64,000 bases of DNA from NCBI RefSeq assembly GCF_006345805.1, contig NC_043003.1, forward strand, positions 44,082,001-44,146,000, written 5' to 3'. The stretch comes from Octopus sinensis. Its lineage: Eukaryota. Made by a program: the position numbers and the translations under genes. The notes under the pieces are model-generated. The model worked only from the letters and a program-made list of their open reading frames with translations. It searched no databases and was not told the origin of the DNA. This document shows positions 791 through 58,075 of the stretch, piece after piece. Position 1 is the first letter of the stretch. The number at the start of each line of letters is the position of its first letter.

Positions 791-1218
791 TATATTTAAG
801 AGATGAGGAATTATATACACTATTTACATTATATACATTCGACGGATATCTGTCCTCATCTTGTTTGTTGTCAACACAACGTTTCGGCTGATATACTCCC
901 CAGGTGTCTTGGGGAAATTTAGAACCTGGGTTCTCATTCCTAACTATTTACATTATTTTACACAAACTATTTACACTATTTACGTTATTTATATTCGACG
1001 GATATTTGTCCTCATCTTGTTTGTTGTTAACAACGTTCCTGCTGATATACCCCCCAGCTTTCTTCAGGTGTCTTGGGGAAATTTAGGAATGAGAATGCAG
1101 GTTCGAAATTTCCCCAATACACCTGAAGAAGGCTGGAGGGTATATCAGCCGGAACGTTGTGTTAACAACAAACAAGATGAGGACAAATATCTGTCGAAAG
1201 TAAATAATGTAAATAATG
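791..1218 (-). mobile_element. Penelope-like pLTR cluster: two tandem minus copies plus one inverted copy, with degenerate hammerheads
   Basis: The segment cgacggatat(c/t)tgtcctcatcttgtttgttg occurs at ~840 and ~996 and inverted at ~1165-1197. The plus copy reads acac-CTGAAGA-aggctg..cagcc-GGAA-cgtt-gtgt. Confidence 0.7.
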
Positions 1219-1524
1219 AACATATGTTTAGTTGCAATGTTCTTATTTTGAGACATGCTTGGGATAATACAGACGGACACACACACATACATATACATGG
1301 AAGTCCTATATATTACTCCAGGCAATTCATAGTACATATACTGATAAGCACATAGATATATACTCAAAGTATAAACCTCAGTAATATTGGGACGTCTGCA
1401 CTGACACGTATGTTATGAAACTCGGAAGTAATAGATAAAAGACTGGATAAAATATAAGAAAAACATCAACAATCTCGTTGAGGAATGTATTTCTTAAGCT
1501 CTATGACTATTTATATATTATTTT

Positions 1525-2205
1525 ATTCTTTTATTTGTTTCAGTTATTTGACTGCGGCCATGCTGAAGCGCTGCCTTTACTCGAGCAGATTGCCCCCAGG
1601 ACTTATACTTTGTAAACCTAGTAATTGCTCTATCGGTCTATTTTGATGAACCACTAACTTACGGGGCACACCAACATCGGTTGTGAAGCGTTGATGACGT
1701 GGGACAAGCACAGATACACAGGCACATATATATAAGCATTAAACACAGACACAGATACACACACACATATATATATGTTGATATATATATTATATGTGGA
1801 GGCGCAATGGCCCAATTGTGGTCGTAGGATCGCGGTTTCGATTCCCAGTCCGGGCGTTGTCAGTGTTTAGTGAGCGAAAACACCTAAAGCTCAACGAGTC
1901 TCCGGCAGGGTGTGGTGGTGATCCCTGCTGTATTCTTTCGCCGCAACTTTCTCTCATTCCTTCTTATGTTGGCCTGCTCGCTTAGCCAGCGGGGTGGCGT
2001 CATTTGAAGGCTAAAACAATGCGAATGGCATTGTCACCAGCGATATGTAGCAACATCTGATCGCCTGGTCGGTCAACGGGCTTCTTTCAGTTTCCGTCTA
2101 CCGTATCCACTCTCTCGGCTTTGCACAAGGCATTCACCGAAGGTGTAACACAGTGTGACTGAACTTGAAATGATGTGGTTGGGAAGGAAGCTTCTTACTA
2201 CTCAG
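1525..2205 (-). mobile_element. Degenerate SINE (family C) interrupted by a family B SINE
   Basis: Shares the blocks gactgcggccatgctg, cgagca..ccccagg and ctttcagtttccgtctacc with 58772-59185. Confidence 0.75.
1797..2074 (+). mobile_element. tRNA-derived SINE (family B)
   Basis: Head ggaggcgcaatggccc with B-box-like gtttcgattcc; an inverted homologue lies at 19549-19838. Confidence 0.8.
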
Positions 2206-2486
2206 TAAATAAGTGTACAAGTTTACACCTACACTTACACACACATACGTATATATACACAAAAACACGTACACAACGCATATATTCACATATATTCACA
2301 CACACACACATAGACACACACACTTACACACAAACACATGTATATATATATATCTTAAACATATATATTCCCCTGTGTACCATACCAAGTGATACTTGAT
2401 TATATGATTGAGTTAAGCTGTTTCGATGACACAATCACCGCATAATTGGATACGCGCATATTGATTTACATTTAGACGGGAACGTC

Positions 2487-2537
<51 letters not shown>

Positions 2538-3154
2538 GCATATCTTGATCTACGTTAGAGAAATTGGTTAATAGAACATATATAATTATTTAGTCTTCGG
2601 GGGATTGTGGACCAAACGTACTTCCACAAGCCTGATTGAACGTATTGCATATTACCGTTCGTAATGTTTGTGTAATATAATTTATTCTAACCTTTACTCT
2701 TTTGCTTTTCTCAATATAAATTTATTGAGTTTGTCTCTATACTATTTTCGTCTTTGTTTACCTCCAGCCATCCTCTCTGATCATTTGACTTCGTCTACGT
2801 AGTCAAAATGAAGTCACCCTCTTCATTGAAATATATATAAGACAATTGCAACGGAGAATTGGGCCTAGTTTTCCATGTTTTACACGTGAGTCATCCAGTA
2901 CAACTGTATTACATCAACATAGGCTCACTCCAGGTATACCTGCAGGTACTTCTGTTTCATCATGTGGTCTTGCTAAGAAATGTTCATTAATGACCGTAAC
3001 AGGCATAACTGATACCTTATCAGGTTACACTCTTTTACGCTTTCAGTCTTCTCGGCCTCGCCGCTGCGGTCATTCTTTTTCACTACTGTGGTCTTTCTGA
3101 TTTTCTCAGTCTTGGATGTTTCACATCACCACTCCTGTATGTGCCTTTCTCCCT

Positions 3155-3375
3155 GCTGTTACCCAACAGGGGAGTTTGATTCTCCTGCCCCCGTCTGCAC
3201 CACATGTCGGGCTGCTGGATCATCCGGTATTATGGAGAGAAGGTTGTCTAGTTCCTTTTTGAAGATATCTACATCCACATTACGCAGATATCTTAATTTT
3301 TTTGGCTGCGCATTGAAGAGCTGCGGGCCTTTGAACATCAGACCATTGCAGTATCTGTACCTGAATTCAGATAGA
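3155..3375 (-). mobile_element. CR1-group LINE 3' fragment
   Basis: Peptide YCNGLMFKGPQLFNAQPKKLR..FKKELDNLL is homologous to the C-terminus of the LINE at 9944-10429. Confidence 0.8.
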
Positions 3376-3497
3376 GTAAATGGTACCATTCGTACAAAAG
3401 AATGGCTGGCGTATACAATATTTGCTTATGTACAACTGCATGTATACATACATACATACATATATATATATATAATATATATATATATATATAATAT

Positions 3498-3528
<31 letters not shown>

Positions 3529-3608
3529 CATATATGTATACATGCAGTTGTACATAAGCAATTATTGTATATGCCAGGCATTGTTTTGTACGAATGGTAC
3601 CATTCACT
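3375..3608. repeat. ~76-bp inverted repeat with a (TA)-rich spacer (MITE-like)
   Basis: 3375-3450 is the near reverse complement of 3533-3608. Confidence 0.8.
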
Positions 3609-3619
3609 ATATATATATA

Positions 3620-3795
3620 TTGTATTTCGGAATGGTCATTTTGTCAGTTTAGCCAATAAAAACACACGCACTATATATTTGGTGTTGCTTTGCTTCAGTG
3701 TTATTTATTGGCTAAACTGACAAAATGACCATTCCGAAATACAACAATGTCTGTTTCAACACACGACTTCACATAAAAAAATCTTGCACAACAAA
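3620..3795 (+). mobile_element. Small fold-back element with 3' tail, between (TA)n tracts
   Basis: Perfect 41-bp arms at 3620-3660 and 3704-3744, followed by a ~50-nt unpaired extension. Confidence 0.75.
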
Positions 3796-3835
3796 TATAT
3801 AAATGTAACATATAGATATATATATATAATATATA

Positions 3836-3877
<42 letters not shown>

Positions 3878-3968
3878 TAATATTTACATGCCTGTATAGA
3901 AACACACACACACCACACACACACAAATAGAATAGATATATACATTGTTAGTTAGATAGATAGATATG

Positions 3969-5068: not shown

Positions 5069-5137
<69 letters not shown>

Positions 5138-9857: not shown

Positions 9858-12360
9858 TTGATTGATTGATTGATTCTAGTTTCAGCTCATGAGCTGTGGC
9901 CATGCTGGGGCACCGCCATTTGGTGTTGCTACTTGGTTTTACTTCACGAAAGCTTTTTAGCAACTGCCATTTGGTGCATGAGAGGGTTCGATGCAGCTGC
10001 CCTCATCTGCACCTCCTGCCGTGAAGTTGGTTCATCTGGGACACCTGACAGGAAGAGATCCAGTTCCATTTTAAAGACACCTGCATCCACCCCATGCAGG
10101 TCTCTCAGGTTCTTCGGGAGGATATTGAAGAGCTGTGGGCCACGGAAGCCCAGGCTATCACAGTATCTTGTCCTACATCTTGATGGCAAATTTGGTGTCC
10201 TAGGCACCACGCAGTGGCACCCAGTTCTGGCACTTGTGTAACTCTCGATGCCAAAGTTTGGGACACGTCCCTCCAGGATCTTCCAGATGTATATTATGGC
10301 ATATCTTTCCCGCCTACGCTCCAAGGAATATAGTTTTAATCTCTTGAGTCTTTCCCAGTAGCTTACATTCTGCATAGAGGCTATCTTCTTCGTGTAGCTA
10401 CGCTGGATCGCCTCGAGCTCTGTGCTCAACTTGACACTGGACGGTGACCATAACTGAGAGCAATAGTCAAAGTGGCTTGAGCTCTGTGATCAACTTGACA
10501 CTGGATGGTGACCATAACTGAGAGCAATAGTCAAAGTGGCTTAGGACAAGTGTCCTCCAGAGGACCATCATGGTTTCTTGTTCTCTTGTTCTAAAGGTTC
10601 TGAGAATCCATCCAGCCAGCCGTCTACATTTTATTGCCAGTTTAGCAACATGTACATGAAAGGTCGCGTCATCACTCATGTGAATACCCAGGTCACGCAC
10701 TGATTGTGCCTTTGGGATTGCAATCCCTCCGGGTCCAGTGTATTCATTGGGTGTTGCATTCAGTTTTGCATGCTGATAGTATAAAGCTTGAAACTTTTCA
10801 GCATTGAACTGCATGCTATTCTTTTCAGCCCATTTGTATATTTCGTCCAGCTTACATTGCAGGTGCTTAGTGTCTTCAGGGTTCTGTATTGCCTGTGAAA
10901 CTTTTGTATCATCTGCATAACTTGTGATCGTGGCTCTCTGCGTGGCTGAGGGCATGTCTGAGAGGGCCATTATGAACAGTAGTGGTCCCAAAACAGTGCC
11001 CTGCGGAACACCGCTCACTATTTGTGTGTTAATGGAAGTGGCCCATTGGCTGTAACCACCTGACTTCTATTCTTCAGAAAGTCATGACGCCATTCTCCCA
11101 ATTTTCCAACTATGCCAAGATCACGCAGTTTGTGACATATCATTCCATGATCGACTTTATCAAAGGCCTTTGCAAAGTCGAGATATATGACTTCCACATT
11201 TGAGTGGTTGAGCAGTTGTTTCAGCACCCAGTCATAGTGTTGTAGGAGCTGAGTTAAACAGCTTCTTCCTGGTCGGAAACCATGTTGGGTGTCAGGCAGC
11301 AAGTCATTTTCTTCAAGGAAGGTGATTAGTTTCCTTCTGACTATTCGTTCCATGACCTTGCTGATGTGTGAGGTGAGAGAGATAGGTCTGTAGTTCTTGG
11401 CCTCTGCTCTGCTACCACCTTTATGAATAGGGCATATTTTACCTTCCTTCAGTTTTTTTGGAAGTTTGCCAGCTGCAAGGAAGCTCTGAAAGAGGATCTG
11501 CAGTGGTCTTGCTAGGACTCTCTTACATACTTTTAGGAGGATTGCCGGGAATCCATCGGGGCCAATAGCTGATTCTGTTTTCATTTCATCTATGGCCTTT
11601 ATTACATCGTCTTCCTTTATATCGATGTAATTTATCGTTGCCGCCTCTGATTTTATATCTGCAGTGGTAAAGAAGTCAGTTGGATTGGTGATTTGGAAAT
11701 GCCCGAGGGGTGGAGTGAAAACACTCTTGAATTGCTCATTCAGTATTTCACTTACCCTCATTGGTTTTCCTGTGAGTGTGCCATCCTTTTCAAGGAGTGG
11801 CCCTATCCTACAGTGCACCGTAGGCATACCTGTAGAAAGCTTTGGAGTTAGATTTTATGTTGTCTATAGCCCAGGCTTCTTTGTCTGCTCTTTCCTTTTC
11901 ATGGGAGAGTTGCAGACATTTTTCAATTTCCAACAGTTTTATTTTCAGGCGGGACTTTTCACTGCTTTCAATCTGTTTGTTTAGGCGATTTGAAATTTTT
12001 GTACGCCGTCTCATTAAGATTTTCCTCTCTCTGGGGATTTTGTTCTTGTGTACAGTGGCCTTTTTCTCTGGGACACATTTGTAGCATATGGCTTGCGTTA
12101 CAGACATGAATTGTTGAAGTTTCACGTCGATGTCTGGCGAGGAGAGACATTTAGGCCAGTTTTGTTTGAGGATCTCTTTCTCAATTTGTTTCCAGTTTGC
12201 CTTATGGTAGTTCAAGCTGGAAAGATTCTGAGGGTTTCTTGTAGGCTGCATGTCCGTGCTCTCTTTTGGCCCGTACATGGTCAGCTCTACCGTGTTGTGA
12301 TCCGAGAGTTGTGTCGGTGTCACTTTCACATTATGGATGAGATCCATATCGTAAATTAAA
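9858..12360 (-). mobile_element. 5'-truncated CR1-group LINE, frameshifted ORF2 (end of APE endonuclease plus RT)
   Basis: Motifs LSDHN, NYRPISLTS, QHGFRPGRSC, YLDFAKAFDKVDH, SGVPQGTVLGPLLF, YADDTK and LYSLERRRER; (ATTG)n tail at 9858-9873. Confidence 0.95.
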
Positions 12361-12759
12361 ATCATCTTATGTTATTTACAATTGATTGCCGAAACTATGC
12401 ATAGTCCAGGAAAGATAGGGTAAACGTTTTCATTTTCATTCTCTTTCAGAATTACAACTATTAGTGGTTTGGAGTTTAACTGCTTTTTCTAATGAGTCAG
12501 ATGTCCTATTATGGTCATCTCTTATGTGTTTAAATATACAGTGTATTTTTCTATAAATATATAGATAGATAGATATATAACGTAGATAGACAGATAGACG
12601 TATATGCTACATATGTATATATATATATATATATATATGCCGTATATTACCAATTACGATATGATCCGTGTTATGTCGCACCCTGCAACTCACATGAATA
12701 GGACTACACTTCTTGTGTTTTTAAATGCCATTGTAAGTGTGAACATTCGTGAATATATA

Positions 12760-15028: not shown

Positions 15029-17676
15029 GTTTGACTTTTGCTTTATATTTGTACAAGTTGGCTCCAAGTCTCACCCAGAGACCTCAAGAGACAACAGGTT
15101 GGAAGTTCACGTTGTTGTTATACCTAGTGTGCCATATATTTGGGGTTTTTTTATGGCTGTACTAGTGAATGTCTATTAAATAAATTTTTAAAATAGAGTT
15201 TGTTTTAAACCTTGAGATTACATAGAGAGTATTTTGCGTAGGATATGAGCAGTTTCCATGAGCACTATCTTTTGAATTTCTGCCATTTTGGGGTTTCCTG
15301 GTATCTGAGTTAGGTAGCTATCAGCCCCTTTTGCTATCATTCCCAGGGCACCTATGACAACAGGTATTGTTTTAGGCTTCAGCTTCCACATTTTGCTGAT
15401 TTTTATTTCAAGATCTTTATATTTGCTCAGTTTTTGGTAGGTCTTGACAGATACGTTTATATCGATTGGGACAGTCATATAAATGAGGAGGCATATTCTT
15501 TGTCTGAAGTCAATCAATATGATGTCTGGCCTGTTTGCATCTATCTTTCTGTCAGCGTTAACCTCCAGAGGAGTGAGATGTGGTCATTTTCAAGCACTGG
15601 AGGTGGATTGTGTTCCCACCAGTTTTTTTCATGGGGCAAATCCAGATTTTTCCAAATTACCCAGTGAATATATTGTGCAGCTCTATCATGCCTGTTGAGG
15701 TAGAAGACTGCACTTGGAGACAACATGATCAATGGTTTCCTTTTGTTGTCGACATGCACGACATGTTGGGCTACTGCCTTTCTTTAGTATGTTGGTTTGG
15801 TAGTTTCTTGTTGGTAGGCATTGATCTTGAGCTGCTATGATACACCCTTCTGTTTCTGATTTTAAGCCAGAGGCCATTAGCCATTTATGGATCAGGGCTT
15901 TCTCAATATCTGCATTATTCGCTCTCTTTGGGTATTTGCCATAGAGAGGTTTTTCTTGCCATTTTTTATTCAGAATATCTAAGGCCGCAGTTTTGGCACG
16001 GGTTTTCATGCGATTAGCTTTTTCTGTGCTTGTTTCTTGTATGTCTATCTCTAATTCCGAAATTTGTTGTATTCGGAATTCACTTAGATATTCCTTTGCC
16101 TGTTTTGTTACTGAGTATGATGCTTTCTTGTTTTCATGTTTTGAGACAAGTTTTAACATCCAGTCCTCAAACTTTTTCAGGTAGGTGTCTAGTCCAATTG
16201 TAGCAATCTTCATTGTCGTTGCCAGTTGTAAAAGACCATGGCGTCCATGTTTTCTTGGCAGATAAAGTCGTTTTGTATCTGCTTTAGGGTGGTGCATTCT
16301 ATGCATTGTCAACAGTTTTCGTATTTTTCTGTCAAGCTGACATATTTCAGTAATTGACCAGTTAACGATATTGAAACTGTAAGTCACGACTGGTATGGCT
16401 AATGCATTGATCGCTTCGATCCTGTTTCTTGCATTCAGCTCTGTCCTGAGTATTGCTCTCACTCTTCGATAACATTCTCTCCAGATCCTTTTCTTCATCT
16501 CTGAATGTCTTATTCAGTCCCCTTCAATTACCCCTAGGTACTTGTAGCTCTCCGCTGGGTCTAGTTCTTTTATGACATTCTGCCGGTCAATGTTAACGTT
16601 AGATGTTTCTGTCATTTTTCCTTTGATAAAGGTAGCTTTTGCACATTTATCGAGGCCAAATTGCATTCCGATGTCGTCACTGAATTGTTTGACTATCGCT
16701 AGTAAGCCCTTGAGTTGTTGGTCATTTTTTCCAAAGAGCTTTAAATCATCCATGTAAATGAGATGATTTATATTTTTATCAAACATTTTATACCCGTACT
16801 GCGCGTCATTGAGTAATTTTGAAAGAGGTATTAAGGCTAAACAAAAGAGGAGTGGTGACAGTAAGTCACCCTGGAAAATGCCACATGAAATCTTTACATC
16901 ACCAGCATTTAGGAATTCATTGTCACTGTTCAAAGTTAGTGTGGTTCTCCATGATCTAATACGTACAGTCAAAAGGTTTATCAGAGTAGGTGCTATCTTA
17001 TACATTTCCAGGCATTTCTTAATCCAGCTATGTGGTAGGCTATCAAAAGCCTTTATATAGTCTATCCAGGCTATTGATAAGTTTTTGTGTCGTTTGTGAC
17101 AATCTTCTAAATCATCTTATTGATAGGTAGCTGGTCTTTACAACCGTAGGATCCACGTTTACATCCTTTCTGTTCGTTAGGGAATATGCTGCTGTCTGTT
17201 AAAAAACTATAAGTATATTCCGTGTCAGGAATAGCGTTTATACATAGTTGTTAAGCAAGTTATGGGTCTATAGTTTTTTGGCTCATTTGTTTCTTCACTT
17301 TTTGGAAGCAGGAATGTTTACCCATTAACTAGCGAAGGAGGCATCCGACTAGGGTGTTGCAAAACATCATTGTACAGTTCTGTTAGAAGTTCATGGCTCT
17401 CTGGGAAGGCATTCAAACAGAAGTTAGGAATATTATACTTTCCTGGAGACTTCCATTTGTTTGACCTCCTGAGAGCAGATCATATATCTTCTACCTTGAC
17501 ACCCTCCGACTTTTGCTCTTCTAAGGAGTCCAGTTCTGTAGATGTTCTCTCAATCCAGGGGTCCTTTTCATTGTGTGTTCTTTCTTCAGCCCAAATTTGA
17601 TTCCAAAATCCCTGCACTTCTTCTTTTGATGGTAAAGACCTTACAGTGCTGTTTTTCCTATCTTCCTGTAAAAATT
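15029..17676 (-). mobile_element. 5'-truncated R4/Dong-type non-LTR retrotransposon (RT, CCHC knuckle, restriction-like endonuclease), frameshifted
   Basis: GIFQGDLLSPLLF, YMDDLKL, YKYLGV, CRACRQQKETIDHVVSKC, RHD, KLSKYKDL and PVVIGALG; flanked by (TTA)n on both sides. Confidence 0.92.
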
Positions 17677-23646: not shown

Positions 23647-23847
23647 TGTGTACCGTTGGCGATCTTTTTCTACTCTGTCTTCCCTTCTCTGGATCTTTCC
23701 TTCTCCTATGTTTCCGACGAAGAGCTCCGCTCGAAACGTTAAACCCTTCTTCTTTCCTTCTTTCCTGAGCGTCCAATAATACTATATTTGTTCCACGTCC
23801 TCACGTTGTTGTGTTTTTTTTGTGCTTTCTTGTTTGGATTAACTTTA
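23645..23847 (+). mobile_element. Short Penelope-like pLTR fragment with a variant minimal hammerhead
   Basis: 23710-23744 reads gttt-CCGACGA-a-gagc(tcc)gctc-GAAA-cg-TT-aaac; TA tracts on both sides. Confidence 0.65.
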
Positions 23848-24578: not shown

Positions 24579-24791
24579 GTGAAATAGAAAGATGAATAAT
24601 CTTGTAGTAGATTAATCAAAAGTTTAACCGATACCTTAGTAGCAAAAATCACAGCAGTAAACAGCACGGTTGGAGGTACAACCATCTGGCGTTGCAACCG
24701 TGCGTTGGTGCGGATAATTGAAATTAAAACATTATTGGTGAATTGAAGAAATGGAGCTGAACGCAGATTGAACAGAAATCGTTTTATTTCA

Positions 24792-24871
24792 TTCTACACG
24801 TGTTTCGAAAGGCACAAATTACCAAAATCCGATTGAATAATGGGACCATATTGTGTCTTTCTCTTCAGGAA
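24792..24871 (-). ncRNA. Type I hammerhead ribozyme motif
   Basis: Reverse complement of 25898-25977. Confidence 0.8.
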
Positions 24872-25897
24872 GAAAAAAGGAAATCCGTTGGAAAAACAAA
24901 AACAGAACAGAGGCGGAGCAAAAACAAAAACAAATCGAACTATGCTCCTAAGAGACCATGGCGAAACTGTTTATCAGTGTATGTTGAGAACCGGTGGCTG
25001 AAGAATTCAACGGGTCAGGCATCGGTCAATCATGTGGGTGAGGGTGTATAGATGTTCTTTGTGACCGAGAATAAAGTTCTGACTATTTAAGGAATATTGG
25101 ATGTTTTATAAGGGGCGAGAAAAAATCTACTTAGAGACGTGTGTGTGTGTATACTGTTCTATATATGTGTGTGTTGGCGTAGGGGTAGAAAACATTTTTT
25201 GTGTACGTGTGTGCGTTTGATCGTTCGGCTGTCAGTGGCTACTGCCGTGATAACCGTTGGGTGGCAGAAAGAAAAAAAATATATATATATTATGTTTTAT
25301 GTGTGTGTGTGTTCATCTAAGCCTGCCTTGTCAAGGAAACCCCCCGCTGTGAAAAAACCAAGCCCCGTTTGTCTTACAGGAGTAATTCCCCTTGCAGTGG
25401 TTAATCGTAGATATCTTAAAGGCTATTTCAGAATTTGTTACCAAGGGCTATGGGTGAACACACACACACATAAAACATAATATATATATTTTTTTTTTCT
25501 TTCTGCCACCCAACGGTTATCACGGCAGTAGCCACTGACAGCCGAACGATCAAACGCACACACGTACACAAAAAATGTTTTCTACCCCTACGCCAACACA
25601 CACATATATAGAACAGTATACACACACACACGTCTCTAAGTAGATTTTTTCTCGCCCCTTATAAAACATCCAATATTCCTTAAATAGTCAGAACTTTATT
25701 CTCGGTCACAAAGAACATCTATACACCCTCACCCACATGATTGACCGATGCCTGACCCGTTGAATTCTTCAGCCACCGTTCTCAACATACACTGATAAAC
25801 AGTTTCGCCATGGTCTCTTAGGAGCATAGTTCGATTTGTTTTTGTTTTTGCTCCGCCTCTGTTCTGTTTTTGTTTTTCCAACGGATTTCCTTTTTTC

Positions 25898-25977
25898 TTC
25901 CTGAAGAGAAAGACACAATATGGTCCCATTATTCAATCGGATTTTGGTAATTTGTGCCTTTCGAAACACGTGTAGAA
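25898..25977 (+). ncRNA. Type I hammerhead ribozyme motif with extended stem II
   Basis: ttc-CTGAAGA-gaaagacacaa...ttgtgcctttc-GAAA-cacgtg-TA-gaa; predicted cleavage GUA^ after 25974. Confidence 0.8.
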
Positions 25978-26045
25978 TGAAATAAAACGATTTCTGTTCA
26001 ATCTGCGTTCAGCTCCATTTCTTCAATTCACCAATAATGTTTTAT

Positions 26046-26606: not shown

Positions 26607-26744
26607 AAGATAAAACTCTGAGTTTCAGATGCCGAAGTGGAAATCCACAACAACATTTCTTCGGTTATCTGGCCAGAGATAGTGTTGTGGATTTCCACTG
26701 CGGCATCTGAAACTCAGAGTTTTATCTTGACTATTAAGTAAATG

Positions 26745-26818: not shown

Positions 26819-28071
26819 GTCAGTGTGTGTGTAATTATATATATTTACGTATATACGAACACAAATATTTGGGGTCGAATCTATCACTTATTATTAAGGG
26901 AAATGGAAGCGATTTCCTTTTAGTGAGGTTAACATCCCTAAAATTAATTCAAATATATGACTTGAAATATGTTATACTAATAGAGTAGATTTCAAAATCT
27001 CATCAGTAATGTAAATGCATGTTTGTAATTCCTTACGAAATTCAGTGGCAATGATCTTTCATTTTGAGAATCAGCATTAACAAAACCAACTGCATAATGC
27101 ACAGTCCCTTTTAAATACCGTTACCATAAACATACTCAACATAAAACTGAAAACGTGAATCTGTAAAATATCTTGGACAACATCCTGAAGGGTTTACTAC
27201 AACCAATCGACCCCAGTACTTATTTATTTTAAAACTTTTCTTTATTCTAATAGTAACTTTTCTGAAAAGATGAGATGCCAGCATGTGTACAAACCACCGT
27301 CAATTTTCCAGCGGTTGTAAGGGACAAACACGAAAGGGAAGGTCTCACATACATAGAAGTACACACACACACACATACACACATACAAACACACTTACTT
27401 ATAAGCAATGTTTATCGCCACTGTTGCGTAGGGAGCGATGCGAATGCTACTTTTAACCTCAGGAGAACGCCTCCTTCAGATTGTTATTGAATGACATCAG
27501 TACATACATACATACATACATACATACAGACATACATATCATGAACTAAATGTTACTTTCTGAGATGCAGCATGTAATTTTGTCAGTGACCAGGTCACTG
27601 TTTCAGAACGACGGAAACATTCTGGCAACTTAAATGTAAATGTTAAACTGAATCTAACAGTTTTTGTTTGTGTTTAAATGGCTTATAAACAACCAACACG
27701 CTGTAGTTGTATTTGCTATGCATGTATATCTCTGTAACTATATATACATTCCAAACTAAAGTAAACAAAGCGACACTTAGTTTTACAAAGCCAAAATACG
27801 AAATACTGGTTGGTGAAAATCTCAAAATAGAATACTAAGCGTCAACCAAGCATCAATCCTCAAAATTGCACGAGGGCAAGATTTACATCAGAGGATAATT
27901 CAGAAATCTCCATACACAGCAGATATGGGATATGTAGCAACTCTGAGTTTCAGATGCCGAAGTGGAAATCCACAACAACATTTCTTCGGTTATCTGGCCA
28001 GAGATAGTGTTGTGGATTTCCACTGCGGCATCTGAAACTCAGAGTTTTATCTTGACTATTGAGTAAATGTA

Positions 28072-29594: not shown

Positions 29595-29639
29595 GTATAA
29601 CATATGTTTCGACCCATCATTCTGGATCTCATCAGATAC
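29595..29639 (-). ncRNA. Minimal type I hammerhead ribozyme motif inside a TA-flanked element (29385-29806)
   Basis: gtat-CTGATGA-gatcca(gaatga)tgggtc-GAAA-catatg-TT-atac. Confidence 0.82.
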
Positions 29640-32897: not shown

Positions 32898-33879
32898 CTG
32901 TATGTATGTATGTATGTATGTATGTACTGATGTCATTCAATAACAATCTGAAGGAGGCGTTCTCCTGAGGTTAAAAGTAGCATTCGCATCGCTCCCTACG
33001 CAACAGTGGCGATAAACATTGCTTAAATGTAAGTGTGTTTGTGTGTGTGTATGTGTGTGTGTGTGTGCATATGTGTGTGTGTGTATGTGTGTGTGTACGT
33101 GTGTGTACTTCTATGTATGTGAGACCTTCCCTTTCATGTTTGTCCCTTACAACCGCTGGAAAATCGACGGTGGTTTGTACACGTGCTGGCATCTCATCTT
33201 TTCGGAAAAGTGACTATTAGAATAAAGAAAAGTTTTAAAATAAATAAGTAATGGGGTCGATTGGTTCTAGTAAACCCTTCAGGATGTTGTCTAAGAATGG
33301 TCGCAGTCTTATGACTGAAGAAATAATAAGGTAAGAGAGTATAGTTTCGTTACCAAAAGATGAATCAACATACAAATATATCATTGATAGGGATCATATT
33401 TTCTCTTTTGACACAAGCCATGCGTATTTGTCAAACTCATATTTCTTATATTGTGAGCAATGAATATCAATGTAGTATTTAGAAATCTAAAGTTATTCTC
33501 ACTTTTAAAATATATGCGTTGTACACATACATGTATATATACATGTATATATATAACATACACGCATACATACTTACATACATGCATACATACATAGATA
33601 CTTAGATACATTGTATTTCATTCACCGTTTTACGTCCACCATATTTGTCTCTTTTTCCCAACCTTTCAAAAACAGTGTAAGCTCAAAACGTGAAATGACT
33701 TTCCTTTTCTTGTCCAATTTTCCCGAGAAAACCTTGATACGTTCTACTATTTGTTATGAACCAGGTCGTCGTTATACACACACGCGCGCGCTGACAGAGA
33801 CACATACACACACACATACGTACATACATACATACATATATACATACATACACACATACATACATACATACATACATAC

Positions 33880-35720: not shown

Positions 35721-35830
35721 TACATACATACATTCATACATACAGGTATACATCCACAGACACACAGAGACGCACATATAAAAACACACAAACACGCACA
35801 CACACATATATCTGTTTTATCATGTATCTG

Positions 35831-42343: not shown

Positions 42344-42413
<70 letters not shown>

Positions 42414-42500
42414 TATTAGAGACAAAACCACTATTTTGCAAAACAAACAAGGAAAGACTTAATCAATACATAAAATTTTAATAAATAGTCAAAAAAACCG

Positions 42501-42543
42501 CCACTACAATTGTTTCTTGTCTTGATCGACAATCTTCAGGTGG
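42501..42543 (-). ncRNA. Minimal type I hammerhead ribozyme motif
   Basis: Reverse complement of 42609-42651. Confidence 0.87.
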
Positions 42544-42608
42544 ACTTCCAATAAGTCAGTTTCAAATTATGAAATAACTTCATAATTTGAAACTGACTTA
42601 TTGGAAGT

Positions 42609-42651
42609 CCACCTGAAGATTGTCGATCAAGACAAGAAACAATTGTAGTGG
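42609..42651 (+). ncRNA. Minimal type I hammerhead ribozyme motif
   Basis: ccac-CTGAAGA-ttgtc(gatcaa)gacaa-GAAA-caattg-TA-gtgg; all stems pair; predicted GUA^ after 42647. Confidence 0.88.
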
Positions 42652-42831
42652 CGGTTTTTTTGACTATTTATTAAAATTTTATGTATTGATTAAGTCTTTC
42701 CTTGTTTGTTTTGCAAAATAGTGGTTTTGTCTCTAATAATATTTTATAATATTTTACTATTAAAATTGGATTTAATCCTAAATCTGATTTTTTTCCCTGT
42801 AAATTTGGATTTATTCCCTAATATTTATTAT

Positions 42832-42978: not shown

Positions 42979-43024
42979 CCTCTACGATCGTTTCTTGTCA
43001 CTTCAATGGACATTCATCAGGTGG
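42979..43024 (-). ncRNA. Minimal type I hammerhead ribozyme motif (one stem I mismatch)
   Basis: ccac-CTGATGA-atgtc(cattgaagt)gacaa-GAAA-cgatcg-TA-gagg. Confidence 0.75.
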
Positions 43025-43382
43025 TTTCAAGACCAGACTCAATATTCAATAAACAGTTATATATTTAACATACATTAATAAGAAATTAATTAATACAATG
43101 AAATACCATCTATAATCTAACTATAATTAAAACCTAAACTACATAACTAAAATAAATTATTATAAAAGTACTCTAAACACTTAAAATTTATAATACCATA
43201 ATAAAACCCATAATAGGGAGCTATTTAATGTTATTAAATAATTATCATTTATCAGGAAACTTATTATATAAGTAAAGTAACCTGTGTCTGCATTTTATTT
43301 TGCGCTCTTCACCTGTATTCAGTAAATTATCATACTTATAAAATAAAATTTCCTTAAACTCATTAGAGCATAAATAACATAA

Positions 43383-44060
43383 ATAATAACGAATATTATT
43401 AAAGAGATTTTAGATATTATCGAACTTTTTATTCGAGATAATCGTAAATATAAAAACATTTTCTCTAGTAATAATTTTGGAGTAGGTTATTCCACCACTA
43501 ATAATGTAGGTAACATTATTTCTTCATTTAACAAATTTAAATTGAATAATTTTTATAAAAATAAATTATTTAATAATACTAATAATAAAGATAAGACATA
43601 TATTAACTGTACTTGTAGAGATAAATCTAAATGTAAATTAAATAATAAATGCGATATTAATGATGTAGTGTATAAATGTATAGTTACATAACATGATAAT
43701 AATTTTAAGAATAATAATTACCCAAAAGCAATTTATATAGGGTCTACTTCCTCTAAAATAAAATTAAGAATCGCACAACATCTGAATTCTTTTAAAAAAT
43801 AAAAACTTAATCAACTCCACTGGACTTAGCAAGTACATTTGGGACTTAAATCACAAAATACTAATTATAATTTATCTTGGGAAATAATTTGTAAAACTAA
43901 ATCATATACTATAGGAGCGAATTTTTGTTATTTATGCTCTAATGAGTTTAAGGAAATTTTATTTTATAAGTATGATAATTTACTGAATACAGGTGAAGAG
44001 CGCAAAATAAAATGCGGACACAGGTTACTTTACTTATATAATAAGTTTCCTGATAAATGA
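43383..44060 (+). pseudogene. C-terminal GIY-YIG endonuclease of a Penelope-like element (Hydra-type), with stops and frameshifts
   Basis: CTCRDKSKCKLNNKC (CxCx5Cx5C), VVYKC, IYIGST..K.RIAQH.NSF, STGLSKYIW, LSWEII, CYLC..E, LLN, KCGH. Confidence 0.85.
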
Positions 44061-46199
44061 TAATTATTTAATAACATTAAATAGCTCCCTATTATGGGTT
44101 TTATTATAGTATTATAAATTTTAAGTGTTTAGAGTACTTTTATAATAATTTATTTTAGTTATGTAGTTTAGGTTTTAATTATACAGACATAGACACACAC
44201 ATACATATAATGGGCATGTATATCAAGTCTCTGTTGGGTGAAACTGGTAACCTGTAACCCAGGACATCTTGTTGCATGGTGAGGTCGTCGGCGACTAAAC
44301 TGGAAACCCATCAAGCTTGCTTAGGGAGGAGAATGAATGTTGGACACCCTGCAGAACGGAAAATGATACCTGTCAAACGCAGAAGAGTCCATGAGTAGTG
44401 AACGTCCATCCGATAATATGTATATATGTGCATGTGTGGACGTATGTATGCACGGGGACGGGAAAATACTTGGGTTAGTGTTTGGAATACTGGGAGTGGG
44501 AAGCCCTTCTGTTGTCACAACTTCTCTCTAGGAGAGGAAGAATCTGAGAGAAAACCTGTGACACTGACACTCTTTAATGATGTAGACTAGTTCTTTTTTT
44601 CAAGTTTATGTTTTCCATGTCCAGGCAGTAGGATTGGATTTGTGCAAATCCTTGCCCACTATCAAAAAAAATTAAATTCTTCATGTACAGGCACTGCTTG
44701 TAAAAATAAACACAATACTTATTGCAAAGATGGCTGGTCGTAGACGTTACCTGTGTGGTACTTTCGATCAGGCGATTGCAATACTCCAACAAGAATTTGT
44801 AGCCATCTTATATGTATGTACGTAGGTATGTATGTATGCATGTATGTATGAAAAGGTTGTGTTAAAAGTTCCACCTAGTGCATGTGAATATATGTGAATA
44901 TATCTAATGTTATATTTTTTCTTTTCGTTGCACATTTTGCTTAATCGGCCATGAAACAAGCAAAACCTAAGTCAAGCTCGTTAGAATTTGAAATCAGAAC
45001 GTTAAAATGGAAGAAATGTCGTAAAGTATTTTGCTCGACATGATAACATTTCAGCCAGTTGACCGCCTTTATCCGTCTACTAAAAGGGATTTCAAATTTT
45101 GGCGCGAGACCAGTAAATTTGAAGCGGGTTGTTAAGTCGATTACATCGACCACATTGTTCAACTGGTGCTTATTTTATCGACCCCAAAATGTTGATTATC
45201 AAGGCTGACCTCAGCAGAATGTCAACTAAGAACGTGAAGAAACGCGAAATGCAACTAAACATTGTCCGATGCGGGAAAGATTCAGTTAGTTCGCTACGTT
45301 TATTTGTCTAGCTAGTGGAAGTAATTTGAGAATTGATGGGAAATTGTGTAATGTAACTCATGATTTGACACGTGATTTTTTTAAAGTTGTGTATTCTTGA
45401 TATAATAAGTTGAGTTTTGTTCAGGTTAAACCTATACCGACGTCATTGAATTATTATATTGATATGTTTCTAACTAGTAATGAGAGCCACGACGCCCCCT
45501 TGCGACTGGGCTGAGTGATTAAAAATCGTACCGGTGGAAGTGACGTTTGTGTGTTAGTTCAAGTTGATTTCGCAGAGAAGTCGGAAGGTGTCGGTTGGTT
45601 AGTTCGACTGGAATATTGATTGTTCGTGAAAAGTTTATTGCATGGTTATGTTGCTATTACGGCTGCGTCATTATCTTGTTTTCTGTTACCACACTGTACC
45701 AGTGTATCTAAACCATCCGCCACAATGTCGTGTTGGAACTACGATACGGGAAACAGAGAATGCAACACTAACTATACCAAAATAACCCATTTCCCGATAT
45801 TAGCTAATCAATGCTTCTATAATGTATGCGAGGTGATGATGTTTTGTGCATATTGTGTTTAAGATGCATTGGGGAAGGGAACATGATATGACGTGTGTGA
45901 GAGAGTAAAGAGAGAGTGATAAGAGTGGAGAGAGGCGGAAATCAGCTCAATGAGCAGAATAGTGAGAACGAGTAGATTGAGTGAGAGAAGAGAGAGAGAG
46001 AGAGAGAGAGTGATTGAGGGAGAGAGAGGGGGAGATAGAGTGAGAGTGAGAGAGAGGGAGAGTGACAAAGAGAGAAGGTAGAAATATCAACAGGGAGGGT
46101 AATGGGGAAGACTGGAGGCGAAAAGGAAGTAGCTTAGAGAATAATCCGCTTTTTTACAATTTCGAATTTAAAAGAGTTTATATTTCTTTGTGCTCGAGG

Positions 46200-51339: not shown

Positions 51340-51810
51340 CTCAATGAGAAGCAACACACTAGGTTTCTATTACTTGATGTCACCAACTGTGTAAAGAACA
51401 TTAGGTACGAAAACAAACGAGTTAAATATGCAATCAGCGGGAGCAAATGAAAAACTGGATAAATAACAGAGAGAACGGCGCTTCATCAGTTGACGCTTGT
51501 CTATCTACTCCTCATTTAGAGAATTCAACCAGAATATGAGTCTTCGAAGACAGTTGCTCCCATAAAATCCAAAATAAAATTTTGAATTTATGAAGGGTCA
51601 AATTTGGGACCAAACACAGGAGAGTTGCGACATAGAAGAAAACCGAACGAAAAGAGAAACGATAGAAGAGAGAGCTAGATGTACAGTCCTTAGAACGTCG
51701 GACAGGAAAAGAAAGAGGGTTACGCGAGGAAAAGAAAGATGGACGACGGTTACGTGTATGCAACGAGAGAGAGAAATAAACATAAAGACGGAGAGAGAGA
51801 GTTAGACAGA
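51340..51810 (-). mobile_element. Degenerate Penelope-like pLTR; related fragment at 52338-52563
   Basis: Both contain cttcatcagttg (minus strand caaCTGATGAag) followed by ttcaacca.aatatgagtcttcg.agaca.ttgctcc. Confidence 0.55.
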
Positions 51811-51968: not shown

Positions 51969-52303
51969 AAATTCAGGATGAATACTTGATAAATGTAAGC
52001 ACCTATATATGCCAGCTAGTAGCAGAGGTGAGAGGACATAAGTATCAAATGAAATAAAAAAAACAGAACACAAAGGATGTCGCGGTACACGTGTTTCAAG
52101 CTTTATAAAACAACTTATTCTTACATCAATGTATAATCGACATAACATATGGTTTAAAGCTCTCTTCAGCAATTGCACGCGGCTGAAGAGAGATTTAAGC
52201 CATCTGTTATGTCGATTCTACATTGATGTAAGAAAAGTTGTTTTATAAAGCTTAAAACACGTGTACCGCGACATCCCTTGTGTTCTGTCTTTTATTTCAT
52301 TTG

Positions 52304-52306
<3 letters not shown>
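51969..52306 (-). mobile_element. Fold-back element with a hammerhead motif in each arm, in (TA)n
   Basis: Arms at 52043-52170 and 52182-52306; ~75-nt tail; 52178-52270 reads cgcgg-CTGAAGA-long stem II-(A)AAA-cacgtg-TA-ccgcg. Confidence 0.82.
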
Positions 52307-52354: not shown

Positions 52355-52570
52355 GGTACAGGACGTCACCACCTGTCTAACCAACATGAAGTGCGAAAAC
52401 AAACGAGCTAATTACACAAACGACGATAGAAAAATGGAAAACAGGACAAATAACAGAGAGAATGGCCCTTCATCAGTTGTCGGCTGCGTATCTACCGGTC
52501 ATATCGAGTATTCAACCAAAATATGAGTCTTCGTAGACATTTGCTCCAATACATTCCAAAATTATGTATA

Positions 52571-52811: not shown

Positions 52812-52846
<35 letters not shown>

Positions 52847-54064: not shown

Positions 54065-54163
<99 letters not shown>

Positions 54164-55876
54164 GTATATATATACATATATATATACATATATATATATA
54201 CACATATATATGCATACATATATACACTTAAAAAATCGCGCATGCAAACACACACACACACGCACACATATCTATGAATGTATACATTACACATGTATAT
54301 ATACATATATATTAGAATTGAATACACTTCAATCAGCAAATTACGATATTTATACTTCCAACATTGATGCTGACTTGCCAAAATGTTGGAACTTTTGTGA
54401 GATATAAGAGAAATACTTCTAGAAATTTTATGGATATGAAGTATATCAGGGAAACAGGATATATTATAGTCATACGGAATTAGTCATTTCTACTTAATTT
54501 CGCATTTTCGACAATATTTGCTAGTATATAAAGCCATTTGGATGAAGGATGAAGGAGTCTGCTGTAGTACCTTTTCTTCATGGTGGTCCATTAATATCAT
54601 GCTGTACGGTTTCAATCGCTTTCAGAAATTCACAAATACATCGTAGAGTTTTCTGTGATTGCCTATATTTTGAAGACTGTGCAGAATTTGGGTCCCTTTA
54701 AATAGTGTTTGTAAATAGAGGGAAAGCTGCTGCGTATTCCCTAGAAAGCCTTTTTGTTCGATATCTTAGCCTGTCCAGCATAATGCTGAACTTTACATTG
54801 CTTTCTAAGAATATATCTCCGAAGATTCAATATTGCGTAGTTGGGTATTGCTAACGTTTGAAAGCATTACGACCAGCAAGTCCAGATTATGTGCATTTAA
54901 TATATTTGTATTGTCCACTGGTGATATCTCGGTACAAAGAAAGGTATCTGGACAGGGAAGAATACCGGGGAAATCATAAAGGATAAATCTCAGAATACAC
55001 GAAGAGACAGAAACAGATATACATGTTTGTGTATGAGCCTTCGTGCGTGCGTTTGTGCAAATGCAGACTAAGTGTGTGCGCAAGCGAGCTTATATCTGTG
55101 TGTATATGTATGTGTTTGTGTGTTTGTGTGTTCGTGTCTCTGTGTATGTCTATCTGCGTCTGTCTGTTTATGTAATGTGTTAGTTATTCATAGGTCCGAA
55201 ATTAGCATGCCCCAAAATTCTTTTACTTTATATTTTTTATACAGTCATTGGTCATGGCTGGTAAGAAACTAACCATTGATTCCATGTCTATCATTGCTCT
55301 AATCAATGTAGGAGGCCCAGGAGACGAGCGGACTGTATGTAGATAATTTCTTCATCAATGGAGGTAAGAATACAATGTTTGCCAGCATAGGATTGGTAAA
55401 ATTCATGAGACATAATTGTTCGAAGTTAAAAGACATACCGGGTGAAACGGAGCTACCTCCATGGAAATTTCAGTTGTGTCCAAATGTGGTCAGTTTATGG
55501 ACATTTTCAGTAGTCCCTAAGCGGAAAATGTCTTGCCTCGTTTTTATCATAAAATGTCCCAAAGTGTGTTCTCACCTGTCTCCTATTGCCTATTCTGTCG
55601 TCGCCTATAGTGCTAAGAACAATATTAGACGTGAAAACAATCTAATCGTCCAAAACCAACGACTACATAAATATATATATATATATATACTAAGCAATAA
55701 GGGTTTAGCAACGAGTTGCCTTACCACATACCGAATTTAGAAATAGCAGTCAAAGGGTTATAGCTATTTCTTCTACTAAAAAGGGAGATCTCAGTAAAAA
55801 CAGCATTTGGAAGGCAGACACAAACAGGTAAGAGAGAATGAATTGACTGCAATCTATCATACATTTTTTTTAGTTA

Positions 55877-55983
55877 TCCACGGACGTACGTTTCGAAATC
55901 AAGTTTTAAGGAAAGCATAAGAATTAAATATTAAATATTAAATAATTCTATCTTACCGAAACTTCTTTTCTCTTCAGCGTAGA
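55877..55983 (-). ncRNA. Type I hammerhead motif (inverted unit)
   Basis: Reverse complement of the unit motif, intact core. Confidence 0.8.
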
Positions 55984-56167
55984 ATACTATAATCATAAAT
56001 GATTATATATTGAATTTTGGTGGGAAGGGGCTGTTGACACAATCGTTTCATTCACAAATTGAATTCGGTGATACCAGTTGCGGATTCTAGCTCGCTCTGA
56101 TACTGAGTTGAGTTGGTGCCTTCTGGTATCTCAAAATTCAATATATAATCATTTATGATTATAGTAT

Positions 56168-56272
56168 TCTACGCTGCAGAGAAAAAAGTTTCGGTAAGAT
56201 AGAATTATTTAATATTAATATTTAATTTTTATGCTTTCCTTAAAACTTGATTTCGAAACGTACGTCCGTGGA
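56168..56272 (+). ncRNA. Type I hammerhead motif, unit 1 (core variant CTGCAGA)
   Basis: As unit 2 but with an A6C change in the core. Confidence 0.65.
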
Positions 56273-56764
56273 TAACTAAAAAAATGTATGATAGATTGCA
56301 GTCAATTCATTCTCTCTTACCTGTTTGTGTCTGCCTTCCAAATGCTGTTTTTACTGAGATCTCCCTTTTTAGTAGAAGAAATAGCTATAACCCTTTGACT
56401 GCTATTTCTAAATTCGGTATGTGGTAAGGCAACTCGTTGCTAACCCTTATTGCTTAGTATTACTTAAATTTTCCTCGAATGAGGCTTTTACATGCCGAAG
56501 ACTACTTGGTGTAATTGATAATTTTTCCAAATTAATTAATTTCACCCTTCATTATTACGGATAACCATATTTTATCTCAGTAGATGACCACAGCATCTTG
56601 TTTTGGCTACACGCGGGTGGGAAGGGGCTGTTGACACAATCGTTTCATTCACAAATTGAATTCGGTGATACCAGTTGCGGATTCTAGCTCGCTCTGATAC
56701 TGAGTTGAGTTGGTGCCTTCTGGTATCTCAAAATTCAATATATAATCATTTATGATTATAGTAT

Positions 56765-56875
56765 TCTACGCTGAAGAGAAAAGAAGTTTCGGTAAGATAG
56801 AATTATTTATTTAATATTTAATATTTAATTCTTATGCTTTCCTTAAAACTTGATTTCGAAACGTACGTCCGTGGA
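56765..56875 (+). ncRNA. Type I hammerhead motif, unit 2
   Basis: tctacg-CTGAAGA-gaaa..~80-nt stem II..tttc-GAAA-cgtacg-TC-cgtgga; predicted GUC^ after 56869. Confidence 0.83.
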
Positions 56876-57366
56876 TAACTAAAAAAATGTATGATAGATT
56901 GCAGTCAATTCATTCTCTCTTACCTGTTTGTGTCTGCCTTCCAAATGCCGTTTTTACTGAGATCTCCCTTTTTAGTAGAAGAAATAGCTATAACCCTTTG
57001 ACTGCTATTTCTAAATTCGGTATGTGGTAAGGCAACTCGTTGCTAAACCCTTATGCTTAGTATTACTTAATTTTCCTCGAATGAGGCTTTTACATGCCGA
57101 AGACTACTTGGTGTAATTGATAATTTTTCCAAATTAATTAATTTCACCCTTCATTATTACGGATAACCATATTTTATCTCAGTAGATGACCACAGCATCT
57201 TGTTTTGGCTACACGCGGGTGGGAAGGGGCTGTTGAGACAATCGTTTCATTCACAAATTGAATTCGGTGATACCAGTTGCGGATTCTAGCTCGCTCTGAT
57301 ACTGAGTTGAGTTGGTGCCTTCTGGTATCTCAAAATTCAATATATAATCATTTATGATTATAGTAT

Positions 57367-57479
57367 TCTACGCTGAAGAGAAAAGAAGTTTCGGTAAGAT
57401 AGAATTATTTATTATTTAATATTTAATATTAATTCTTATGCTTTCCTTAAAACTTGATTTCGAAACGTACGTCCGTGGA
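57367..57479 (+). ncRNA. Type I hammerhead motif, unit 3
   Basis: Same motif; predicted cleavage after 57473. Confidence 0.83.
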
Positions 57480-57968
57480 TAACTAAAAAAATGTATGATA
57501 GATTGCAGTCAATTCATTCTCTCTTACCTGTTTGTGTCTGCCTTCCAATGCTGTTTTTACTGAGATCTCCCTTTTTAGTAGAAGAAATAGCTATAACCCT
57601 TTGACTGCTATTTCTAATTCGGTATGTGGTAAGGCAACTCGTTACTAAACCCTTATTGCTTAGTATTACTTAAATTTTCCTCGAATGAGGCTTTTACATG
57701 CCGAAGACTACTTGGTGTAATTGATAATTTTTCCAAATTAATTAATTTCACCCTTCATTATACGGATAACCATATTTTATCTCAGTAGATGACCACAGCA
57801 TCTTGTTTTGGCTACACGCGGGTGGGAAGGGGCTGTTGACACAATCGTTTCATTCACAAATTGAATTCGGTGATACCAGTTGCGGATTCTAGCTCGCTCT
57901 GATACTGAGTTGAGTTGGTGCCTTCTGGTATCTCAAAATTCAATATATAATCATTTATGATTATAGAT

Positions 57969-58075
57969 TCTACGCTGAAGAGAAAAGAAGTTTCGGTAAG
58001 ATAGAATTATATAATATTTAAATTTTAATTCTCATGCTTTCCTTAAAACTTGATTTCGAAACGTACGTCCGTGGA
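57969..58075 (+). ncRNA. Type I hammerhead motif, unit 4
   Basis: Same motif; predicted cleavage after 58069. Confidence 0.83.

What the first reader, a model, noticed from the sequence alone, without database searches (positions are those of the whole stretch)
1119..58075. Several hammerhead families, most with a different palindromic stem III
Seen: the segment between GAAA and the cleavage site is always self-complementary but varies: CGTACG (array), CACGTG (25967, 52258), CAATTG (42640), CGATCG (~42985), CATATG (29601) and the short AACGTT form (23735, ~1153). Sequence changes while the palindrome is kept, and stems I and II also differ while still pairing, which argues for selection on structure. 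Known: minimal hammerheads with unstable palindromic stem III cleave as dimers. Inference: the palindrome could act as a family-specific pairing code, so that only tandem or same-family RNAs activate each other.
Basis: partly seen in the sequence, partly recalled or inferred. Interest (0 to 1): 0.75.

Follow-up and report, generated by a model that had tools for sequence, protein, structure and literature searches.

The report
Self-pairing hammerheads of Penelope-like retroelements
The window holds many copies of a small RNA motif, predicted to cut itself, from several families of Penelope-like jumping genes; its self-complementary third stem is real and likely lets two identical copies fold together, an idea already published, but the palindromes are shared between unrelated families and change within a family, so they are not a family-specific code.

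Summary
In detail: all seven palindromes lie at the stated positions, inside type I hammerhead motifs. Two families are tied to Hydra-clade Penelope-like element (PLE) ORFs. The 600-bp array is a non-coding tandem of retrozyme type. The genome holds tens of thousands of such motifs.

Self-pairing is under selection at the RNA level. G-U wobble variants outnumber their mirror-image A-C variants about threefold. Adjacent tandem copies are predicted to fold as a double hammerhead.

The 'family code' is not supported. Unrelated families share a palindrome. One lineage carries several. About 69 of 100 listed copies of the young 42613 family carry a non-palindromic wobble form, predicted to pair with both neighbouring palindromes.

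Palindromic stem III and dimer cleavage are published, including a table of family-variable stems in Hydra PLEs. I did not find in print the long (45-90 nt) helix II class or the amplified wobble intermediates. An earlier scan report on another genome reached the same verdict. Cleavage is untested.

The parts
1119..1162 (+). Minimal type I hammerhead motif (extra nucleotide after the core, A-CG-U stem III); this copy reads GGAA for GAAA; inverted decayed twin with core at 1067 (-), within hairpin 964-1229
   Evidence: high-copy family
23710..23744 (+). Minimal type I hammerhead motif of a second family (A-CG-U stem III); this copy has the core variant CCGACGA
24725..26044 (.). 5'-truncated, inverted-arm insertion of the 3' end of a Hydra-type PLE (97-98% identical to the 3' ends of ORF-bearing copies in L270)
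24791..24872 (-). Hammerhead motif, 55-nt helix II, stem III CACGTG (inverted arm)
25897..25978 (+). Hammerhead motif, 55-nt helix II, stem III CACGTG
26609..26669 (-).
27934..27994 (-). Second copy of the odd-length family; 3' stem I strand lost
29595..29639 (-). Hammerhead motif, 18-nt helix II, stem III CATATG; relatives carry CATATG or CATGTG
42399..42752 (.). Hairpin insertion of a young family's 3' end (two 170-nt arms) next to (TA)n; motifs at 42501-42543 (-) and 42609-42651 (+), stem III CAATTG
42979..43024 (-). Hammerhead motif, stem III CGATCG, sister lineage of the 42613 family (same stem I); private stem I mismatch; about 220 nt downstream of the inverted endonuclease 3' end
43122..44183 (+). 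Broken GIY-YIG-type endonuclease remnant (about 43383-44060, CxCX5C linker, CxxC, CxH) with an inverted copy of its 3' end at 43122-43384
52043..52306 (.). Hairpin insertion; + motif 52178-52270 (AAAA for GAAA), - motif with core 52169 (5' stem I strand lost at the inversion); 64-65-nt helix II, stem III CACGTG
55687..58364 (+). Non-coding tandem array of about 600-bp units with one inverted 5' unit; hammerhead cores at 56174 (variant), 56771, 57373, 57975 (+) and 55977 (-); 74-82-nt helix II; stem III CGTACG

Best explanation
These are type I hammerhead motifs at the 3' ends of Penelope-like retroelements and their non-coding tandem derivatives, and the palindrome likely exists because two identical copies in one transcript must pair with each other to build stem III. 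Shown: the motifs, their link to Hydra-type ORFs for the 25901 and 43020 families, palindromy far above chance, and the G-U over A-C asymmetry. Predicted: in tandem RNA, copy 1 and copy 2 swap stem I strands and form one 8-bp stem III (double hammerhead), while a single copy could form only two pairs. Inferred: cleavage at both sites would release a unit-length RNA from a multimeric or pLTR-ORF-pLTR transcript, and a lone copy would stay uncut. Because the partner is an identical copy, any self-complementary sequence serves; the palindrome likely drifts by two transitions through a tolerated G-U intermediate (CGATCG-CGATTG-CAATTG; CACGTG-CATGTG-CATATG). Specificity between families would be a side effect of divergence in stems I and III.
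For: Patterns blind to the central four letters give 18,823 matches (control 1,002) and 11,900 (control 21). Of the first 100 listed, 71 are strict palindromes, 18 wobble-pairing and 11 other (by eye; chance about 1 in 16). 13 of 16 possible C-NNNN-G palindromes were seen (four of them once only). Wobble class against mirror class: 5,862 vs 2,339 (controls 587, 450) and 6,477 vs 1,965 (controls 604, 376). Private substitutions in four families show no matching strand bias (A>G plus C>T 23, T>C plus G>A 30). The unconstrained fold of two array units is the double hammerhead, 12 kcal/mol below two single folds, with stem III pair probabilities 0.84-1.0; the same holds in 11 of 11 adjacent pairs from four tandem families. 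In silico, 14 of 16 palindromic, 5 of 20 wobble and 3 of 220 other central tetramers keep that fold. L269 has two direct CGATTG motifs flanking RT and endonuclease remnants. An apparent non-palindromic family turned out to be a 10-nt palindrome.
Against: No cleavage or expression is shown. Most copies are single or inverted, and could not dimerise in cis from their present locus; selection must have acted on the source elements. Whole-genome counts are dominated by a few amplified subfamilies, so they are not independent events. One amplified subfamily has central U-U mismatches (CATTTG; nine near-identical rows among 100). Published PLE minimal hammerheads cleave poorly even as dimers (PMC4209133), and catalytic mutants did not affect insertion in vitro for one PLE (PMC11167929). 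No ORF link was found for the array, 29635, 52183 or 42613 families. The order of the steps in the drift path is not rooted.
Confidence: 0.8

Rival explanations
1. The palindrome is a family-specific pairing code, selected to diverge so that only same-family RNAs activate each other.
For: Different strict palindromes are predicted to pair poorly. 13 of 16 possible words are in use. Sister lineages 42613 and 43020 share stem I but differ in stem III.
Against: Words are shared by unrelated lineages and vary within lineages. The majority form of the 42613 family is predicted to pair with both CAATTG (-6.1) and CGATCG (-7.9). The two abundant minimal families both use ACGT. Published Hydra-clade families of one genome also share stem III (five Hydra magnipapillata families with the same one; File S2 of PMC8557442).
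Confidence: 0.07
2. The palindrome is a dimerisation signal that brings two separate template RNAs into one retrotransposition complex, with cleavage secondary.
For: In 2 of 23 informative multi-arm insertions of the 42613 family the two arms differ at the CAATTG/CGATTG site (L009, L010). The PLE protein is predicted to be a dimer, and hammerhead cleavage was dispensable for insertion in vitro (PMC11167929 passages).
Against: Discordant arms can also come from one source with two different pLTRs or from gene conversion. The catalytic core is conserved along with the palindrome. An 8-bp AU-rich helix is weak for pairing between separate molecules.
Confidence: 0.08
3. The motifs cleave as monomers, helped by the long helix II or by proteins, or the palindrome is a DNA-level site; wobble excess reflects strand-biased mutation such as A-to-I editing.
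For: One run guessed to be RNA shows A>G in 16 of 45 listed changes on the sense strand (no matching DNA run, so only a hint). Several words are CANNTG boxes (recalled).
Against: A monomer stem III has two pairs and positive energy, and a monomer would not need a palindromic loop. A DNA site cannot tell a word from its reverse complement, yet the counts differ about threefold. Private substitutions show no A>G excess, and CGATTG is linked to other subfamily markers, so it is inherited.
Confidence: 0.05

Closest known systems
Hammerheads of Hydra-clade Penelope-like elements (Craig et al. 2021, PMC8557442; seen: passages, section 11, supplement part 2 of 59 with Files S1 and S2)
   Same: Type I motif near the 3' end, short stem I, self-complementary stem III whose sequence varies between families and is shared by some; ORF motifs DKT, CxCX5C, CxxC and CxH; (TA)n targets; inverted 5'-truncated arms. 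The listed Hydra-1_oBim motif nearly matches a row.
   Different: Most listed stems III are odd-length with a one-letter centre, or longer; here even-length 6-nt words giving a perfect 8-bp helix dominate the searched classes. Listed Hydra-clade loops II are at most 10 nt; here helix II of 45-90 nt is very common. The text I saw does not discuss palindromes (0 occurrences of the term).
Minimal and palindromic-helix-III hammerheads of metazoan PLEs (Cervera and De la Pena 2014, PMC4209133; seen: parts 1-2 of 4). Lunse et al. (PMC5785218) seen only as a title and as cited in PMC6765202
   Same: Many consensus families per genome with covariation; palindromic 15.2-16.2 and loop 3; extra nucleotide after position 9; dimer model; copies on opposite strands 100-700 bp apart. 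The 1123 and 23714 families fit the minimal form.
   Different: The 6-nt families have a longer palindrome and much longer helix II than described in the parts I read.
Repeat-type hammerheads with palindromic stem/loop III (Perreault et al. 2011, PMC3088659; seen: passages and Fig. S8 text)
   Same: Fig. S8 lists differing palindromic stem III sequences, including variants within one species, and proposes dimeric pairing up to 10 bp.
   Different: A few species examples; no genome-wide wobble versus mismatch test in the passages seen.
Animal non-LTR retrozymes (PMC7229834, passages; bioRxiv 10.64898/2026.07.22.740005, parts 1-2 of 5)
   Same: Non-coding tandem units with one type I hammerhead each, low GC, proposed to derive from PLE pLTRs; amphibian ones need dimers.
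   Different: The 600-bp unit is longer than the 150-450 bp of PMC7229834 (within the 51-972 bp of the preprint) and has a 74-82-nt helix II; circular RNA is not shown here.
Retroviral dimerisation-initiation palindromes (PMC3884649 seen only in a search listing; otherwise recalled)
   Same: A short RNA palindrome pairs two copies of a retroelement RNA.
   Different: There it is a kissing loop between separate genomes; here it is part of a catalytic fold, most simply between copies in one transcript.

Membership tests
Type I hammerhead ribozyme | Core CUGANGA, GAAA and NUH in type I order | tested here: met
   15 motifs with at most one core change; 10 have a fully canonical core
Type I hammerhead ribozyme | Helices I, II and III around the core | tested here: met
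   Helices I and II pair; helix III is stable only between two copies
Type I hammerhead ribozyme | Match to an Rfam hammerhead model | tested here: not met
   None among the 150 of 156 matches shown
Type I hammerhead ribozyme | Loop I - loop II tertiary contact | not tested
   Not examined; helix II length varies from 12 to about 90 nt
Type I hammerhead ribozyme | Self-cleavage | not testable with these tools
   Only contigs were available
Hydra-clade PLE (25901 and 43020 families) | RT followed by a C-terminal GIY-YIG endonuclease, hammerhead downstream | tested here: met
   L269, L273, L274 layout. Pfam GIY-YIG only below cut-off, E 0.007, in 1 of 11 proteins; no Pfam RT match
Hydra-clade PLE (25901 and 43020 families) | DKT motif; CxxC and CxH around the conserved E and N | tested here: met
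   Translation of L273, a relative of the 25901 family; alignment; definitions
Hydra-clade PLE (25901 and 43020 families) | CxCX5C linker | tested here: inconclusive
   Present in the window remnant, L174 and L269; absent in L273
Hydra-clade PLE (25901 and 43020 families) | RWK motif | tested here: inconclusive
   KFRK in L273; RWR in an ORF of another element in L276
Hydra-clade PLE (25901 and 43020 families) | Placement in an RT tree with reference PLEs | not tested
   No tree with reference elements was built
Non-LTR retrozyme (array 55687-58364) | Non-coding tandem units, each with a type I hammerhead | tested here: met
   (L277 holds nine copies)
Non-LTR retrozyme (array 55687-58364) | Expression as linear and circular monomer RNA | not testable with these tools
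   No holder on record as RNA; contigs only
PLE minimal hammerhead (1123, 23714) | Extra nucleotide after position 9, G10.1-C11.1 pair, palindromic 15.2-16.2 | tested here: met
   definition
PLE minimal hammerhead (1123, 23714) | Location in the pLTR of a PLE ORF | tested here: inconclusive
   No sense-orientation ORF link seen in the loci fetched
Family-specific pairing code | One word per family, not shared | tested here: not met
Family-specific pairing code | Word invariant within a young family | tested here: not met
Family-specific pairing code | Different words do not cross-pair | tested here: inconclusive
   Predicted true for most strict palindromes, false for wobble forms

The most novel reading that the evidence does not exclude
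The stem III palindrome acts like a retroviral dimerisation signal: it joins two template RNAs in one Penelope insertion complex, which would explain inverted arms that differ in sequence, and it sorts co-active elements into compatibility classes bridged by wobble forms. The long helix II would be a further, undescribed functional module of these ribozymes.
Probability: 0.12. Interest if true: 0.7.

Novelty: new variant of a known kind. Interest (0 to 1): 0.35.

Why it matters
Dimer-type hammerheads in Penelope-like elements are known, so the core observation is not a surprise. The genome does give a large natural test of the dimer model: mirror-image wobble and mismatch variants differ about threefold, and wobble intermediates of compensatory change are caught as amplified subfamilies. 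The class with 45-90-nt helix II (at least 11,900 matches) is missed by Rfam here and may be missed by short-loop descriptors elsewhere. The role of PLE hammerheads in transposition is still open, and the 600-bp array and the 42613/43020 trio are ready-made constructs for testing it.

Tried and rejected
Rfam scan: no hammerhead family among the matches shown. Random 800 kb of the genome with a strict descriptor: only 8 hits, 4 palindromic, against 5 hits and no palindrome in three shuffles; too few for statistics. I first read the CTGACG family as a non-palindromic exception (about 18 of 100 rows); its flanks show a 10-nt palindrome, so I dropped that reading. A-to-I editing as the source of wobble forms: not supported by private substitutions or by linkage. 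Pfam and PDB searches of the ORFs gave nothing above cut-off; the Atlas gave no answer. Sequencing runs: no RNA holder listed; contigs of four runs could not show ends or cleavage, and listed no difference in stem III, with 17 rows not shown. No ORF link found for the array unit in ten ORF-bearing or tandem loci. Lunse et al. could not be read; it may already cover palindrome covariation or hetero-pair tests. Literature searches returned no paper, judged from listings and the passages read, on a family code, a wobble asymmetry or long helix II in PLE hammerheads; most subscription papers and the supplements of PMC4209133 and of the preprint were not seen.
Full report
Observation. The window is from a 2.7-Gb, microsatellite-rich animal genome. 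It is likely an octopus, since the published Hydra-1_oBim hammerhead nearly matches a row. A relaxed type I descriptor finds 15 motifs, 14 self-complementary, against 0.15 per shuffle. Two of the 14 are palindromic by construction, and the other 12 are copies of six families. Several copies have private core or stem damage, and most lie in inverted-arm hairpins. A further odd-length family lies at 26609-26669 and 27934-27994. Rfam shows no hammerhead match.

What they belong to. The 43020 motif follows the inverted 3' end of a broken GIY-YIG-type endonuclease at about 43383-44060. Relatives of the 25901 family carry RT and endonuclease ORFs 400-680 nt upstream of the motif. These ORFs show DKT, CxxC and CxH, and in the 43020 lineage and L269 also CxCX5C, features that define Hydra-clade PLEs (PMC8557442 section 11). 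Pfam gave only one sub-threshold GIY-YIG match in 11 proteins, and I built no reference tree. Inverted 5'-truncated arms and (TA)n targets are typical of PLEs. The 600-bp array is non-coding and young, with 98-99% identical arrays elsewhere; it fits the retrozyme description. No ORF link was found for the array or for the 29635, 52183, 42613 and minimal families.

Genome-wide scale. Patterns blind to the central letters give 18,823 matches for helix II of 14-44 nt (control 1,002), 11,900 for 47-77 nt with a G-C first pair (control 21) and 17,629 for the minimal form (control 227). Only the first 100 rows are listed per call; my tallies are by eye; 71 strict, 18 wobble, 11 other; 44 strict, with about 18 further rows from a family later shown to have a 10-nt palindrome; about 70 read CG. 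Thirteen of the 16 possible C-NNNN-G words were seen. Long helices II fold mostly as irregular rods, median z -1.8, 22 of 55 distinct inserts below -2.

Selection acts on RNA pairing. A word and its reverse complement are equivalent in DNA, but in RNA one gives G-U and the other A-C. The G/T class outnumbers the A/C class 5,862 to 2,339 at the inner pair (controls 587, 450) and 6,477 to 1,965 at the outer pair (controls 604, 376), or 2.8 and 3.7 times after subtracting controls. These classes also include G-G, U-U, A-A and C-C mismatches. The G/T listings contain near-identical amplified subfamilies; the A/C listings are mostly divergent single copies. A few bursts drive the ratio, so it is not a count of independent events. 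Private substitutions in four families show no such strand bias (23 against 30; small numbers from best-hit copies). Against a clean picture, one amplified subfamily has central U-U mismatches, and one run guessed to be RNA shows many A>G changes.

Mechanism. A single copy can form only two stem III pairs (+2.4 kcal/mol), while two copies form an 8-bp helix of -6 to -15 for strict palindromes. The unconstrained fold of two adjacent array units is the double hammerhead, with swapped stem I strands, 12 kcal/mol below two single folds. The same inter-copy helix appears in 11 of 11 adjacent pairs from four tandem families. Of 256 central tetramers placed in both copies, 14 of 16 palindromic, 5 of 20 wobble and 3 of 220 others keep the fold. 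L269 shows two direct motifs around an ORF. I infer that cleavage would need two copies in one transcript and would release a unit-length RNA. This step is untested, and published activity of PLE minimal hammerheads is low and was dispensable for insertion in vitro in one element.

The code idea. Different strict words are predicted to pair poorly, so the physical premise is fair. But words are not family labels. In 190 motifs from fetched loci, clustered into 30 lineages, CGATCG leads in five, and four lineages hold several forms (loci L201-L228 were selected for wobble forms, and several singletons may be chance). The window's 25901 and 52183 families share CACGTG, and both minimal families share ACGT. 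The 43020 lineage has CGATCG and CAATTG subfamilies. In the 42613 family, 2,591 copies match exactly over 27 letters, and the first 100 listed are 69 CGATTG, 28 CAATTG and 3 other. CGATTG is linked to other markers in about half of 20 copies and is predicted to pair with both CAATTG and CGATCG. In 2 of 23 informative multi-arm insertions the arms differ at this site. The simplest reading is drift through G-U intermediates, with any specificity arising from stems I and III together.

Relation to what is known. Palindromic helix III with dimer cleavage in PLEs is described in PMC4209133 and reviewed in PMC6765202 and PMC6466107 (passages). Differing palindromes are listed in Fig. S8 of PMC3088659, and File S2 of PMC8557442 tabulates family-variable, partly shared stems III in Hydra PLEs. 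Lunse et al. could not be read. My six searches did not turn up the long helix II class, the wobble asymmetry or a family code. An earlier scan report on another genome (e1-8664523) also rejected the code; I had reached that reading before consulting it.

Verdict. Real and ordinary in kind: dimer-type PLE hammerheads, with a long-helix-II variant and unusually good genomic evidence for pairing. Interest 0.35.

Noticed in passing
L009 and L010 (42613 family): The two inverted arms of one insertion differ at the CAATTG/CGATTG site (2 of 23 informative multi-arm loci); could mean two templates, two different pLTRs, or gene conversion.
   Followed up: partly
L114, L119, L127: A family with a 10-nt palindromic stem III, long enough for a four-pair monomer stem yet still fully palindromic.
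   Followed up: partly
L213, L214 and further rows: An amplified relative of the 42613 family with two central U-U mismatches in the predicted dimer helix.
   Followed up: no
window 51376-51575 and 52362-52562 (cores at 51489 and 52476, - strand): Two related repeats (80% alike) keep a CTGATGA half-core with no GAAA in the 80 nt shown downstream; may be a rearranged hammerhead like those in other scan notes on this genome.
   Followed up: no
window 33854-35737: Near-identical direct duplication of about 920 bp; each unit holds CTGATGA (34580, 35499) without a GAAA in the 80 nt shown downstream.
   Followed up: no
window 62954-63000 (+): Weak hammerhead-like match with a variant core and an imperfect 12-nt stem III; may be chance.
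   Followed up: no
window 9870-12371 (-) and 15218-17116 (-): Broken LINE-type reverse transcriptase ORFs of two kinds; the second ends in a restriction-like endonuclease motif (labels recalled, no family scan run).
   Followed up: no
window about 28750-29300 (+): Broken ORF resembling a Tc1/mariner transposase (recalled), just beside the 29635 motif.
   Followed up: no
run X2 laid on window 56467-57068: A>G makes up 16 of 45 listed changes on the sense strand, many at partial frequency; possible A-to-I editing, but the run is only guessed to be RNA and has no matching DNA.
   Followed up: no
window as a whole versus L031-L110: The window seems richer in hammerhead motifs than 800 kb of random genome (7 cores in 64 kb against 8; the descriptors differ slightly).
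   Followed up: no
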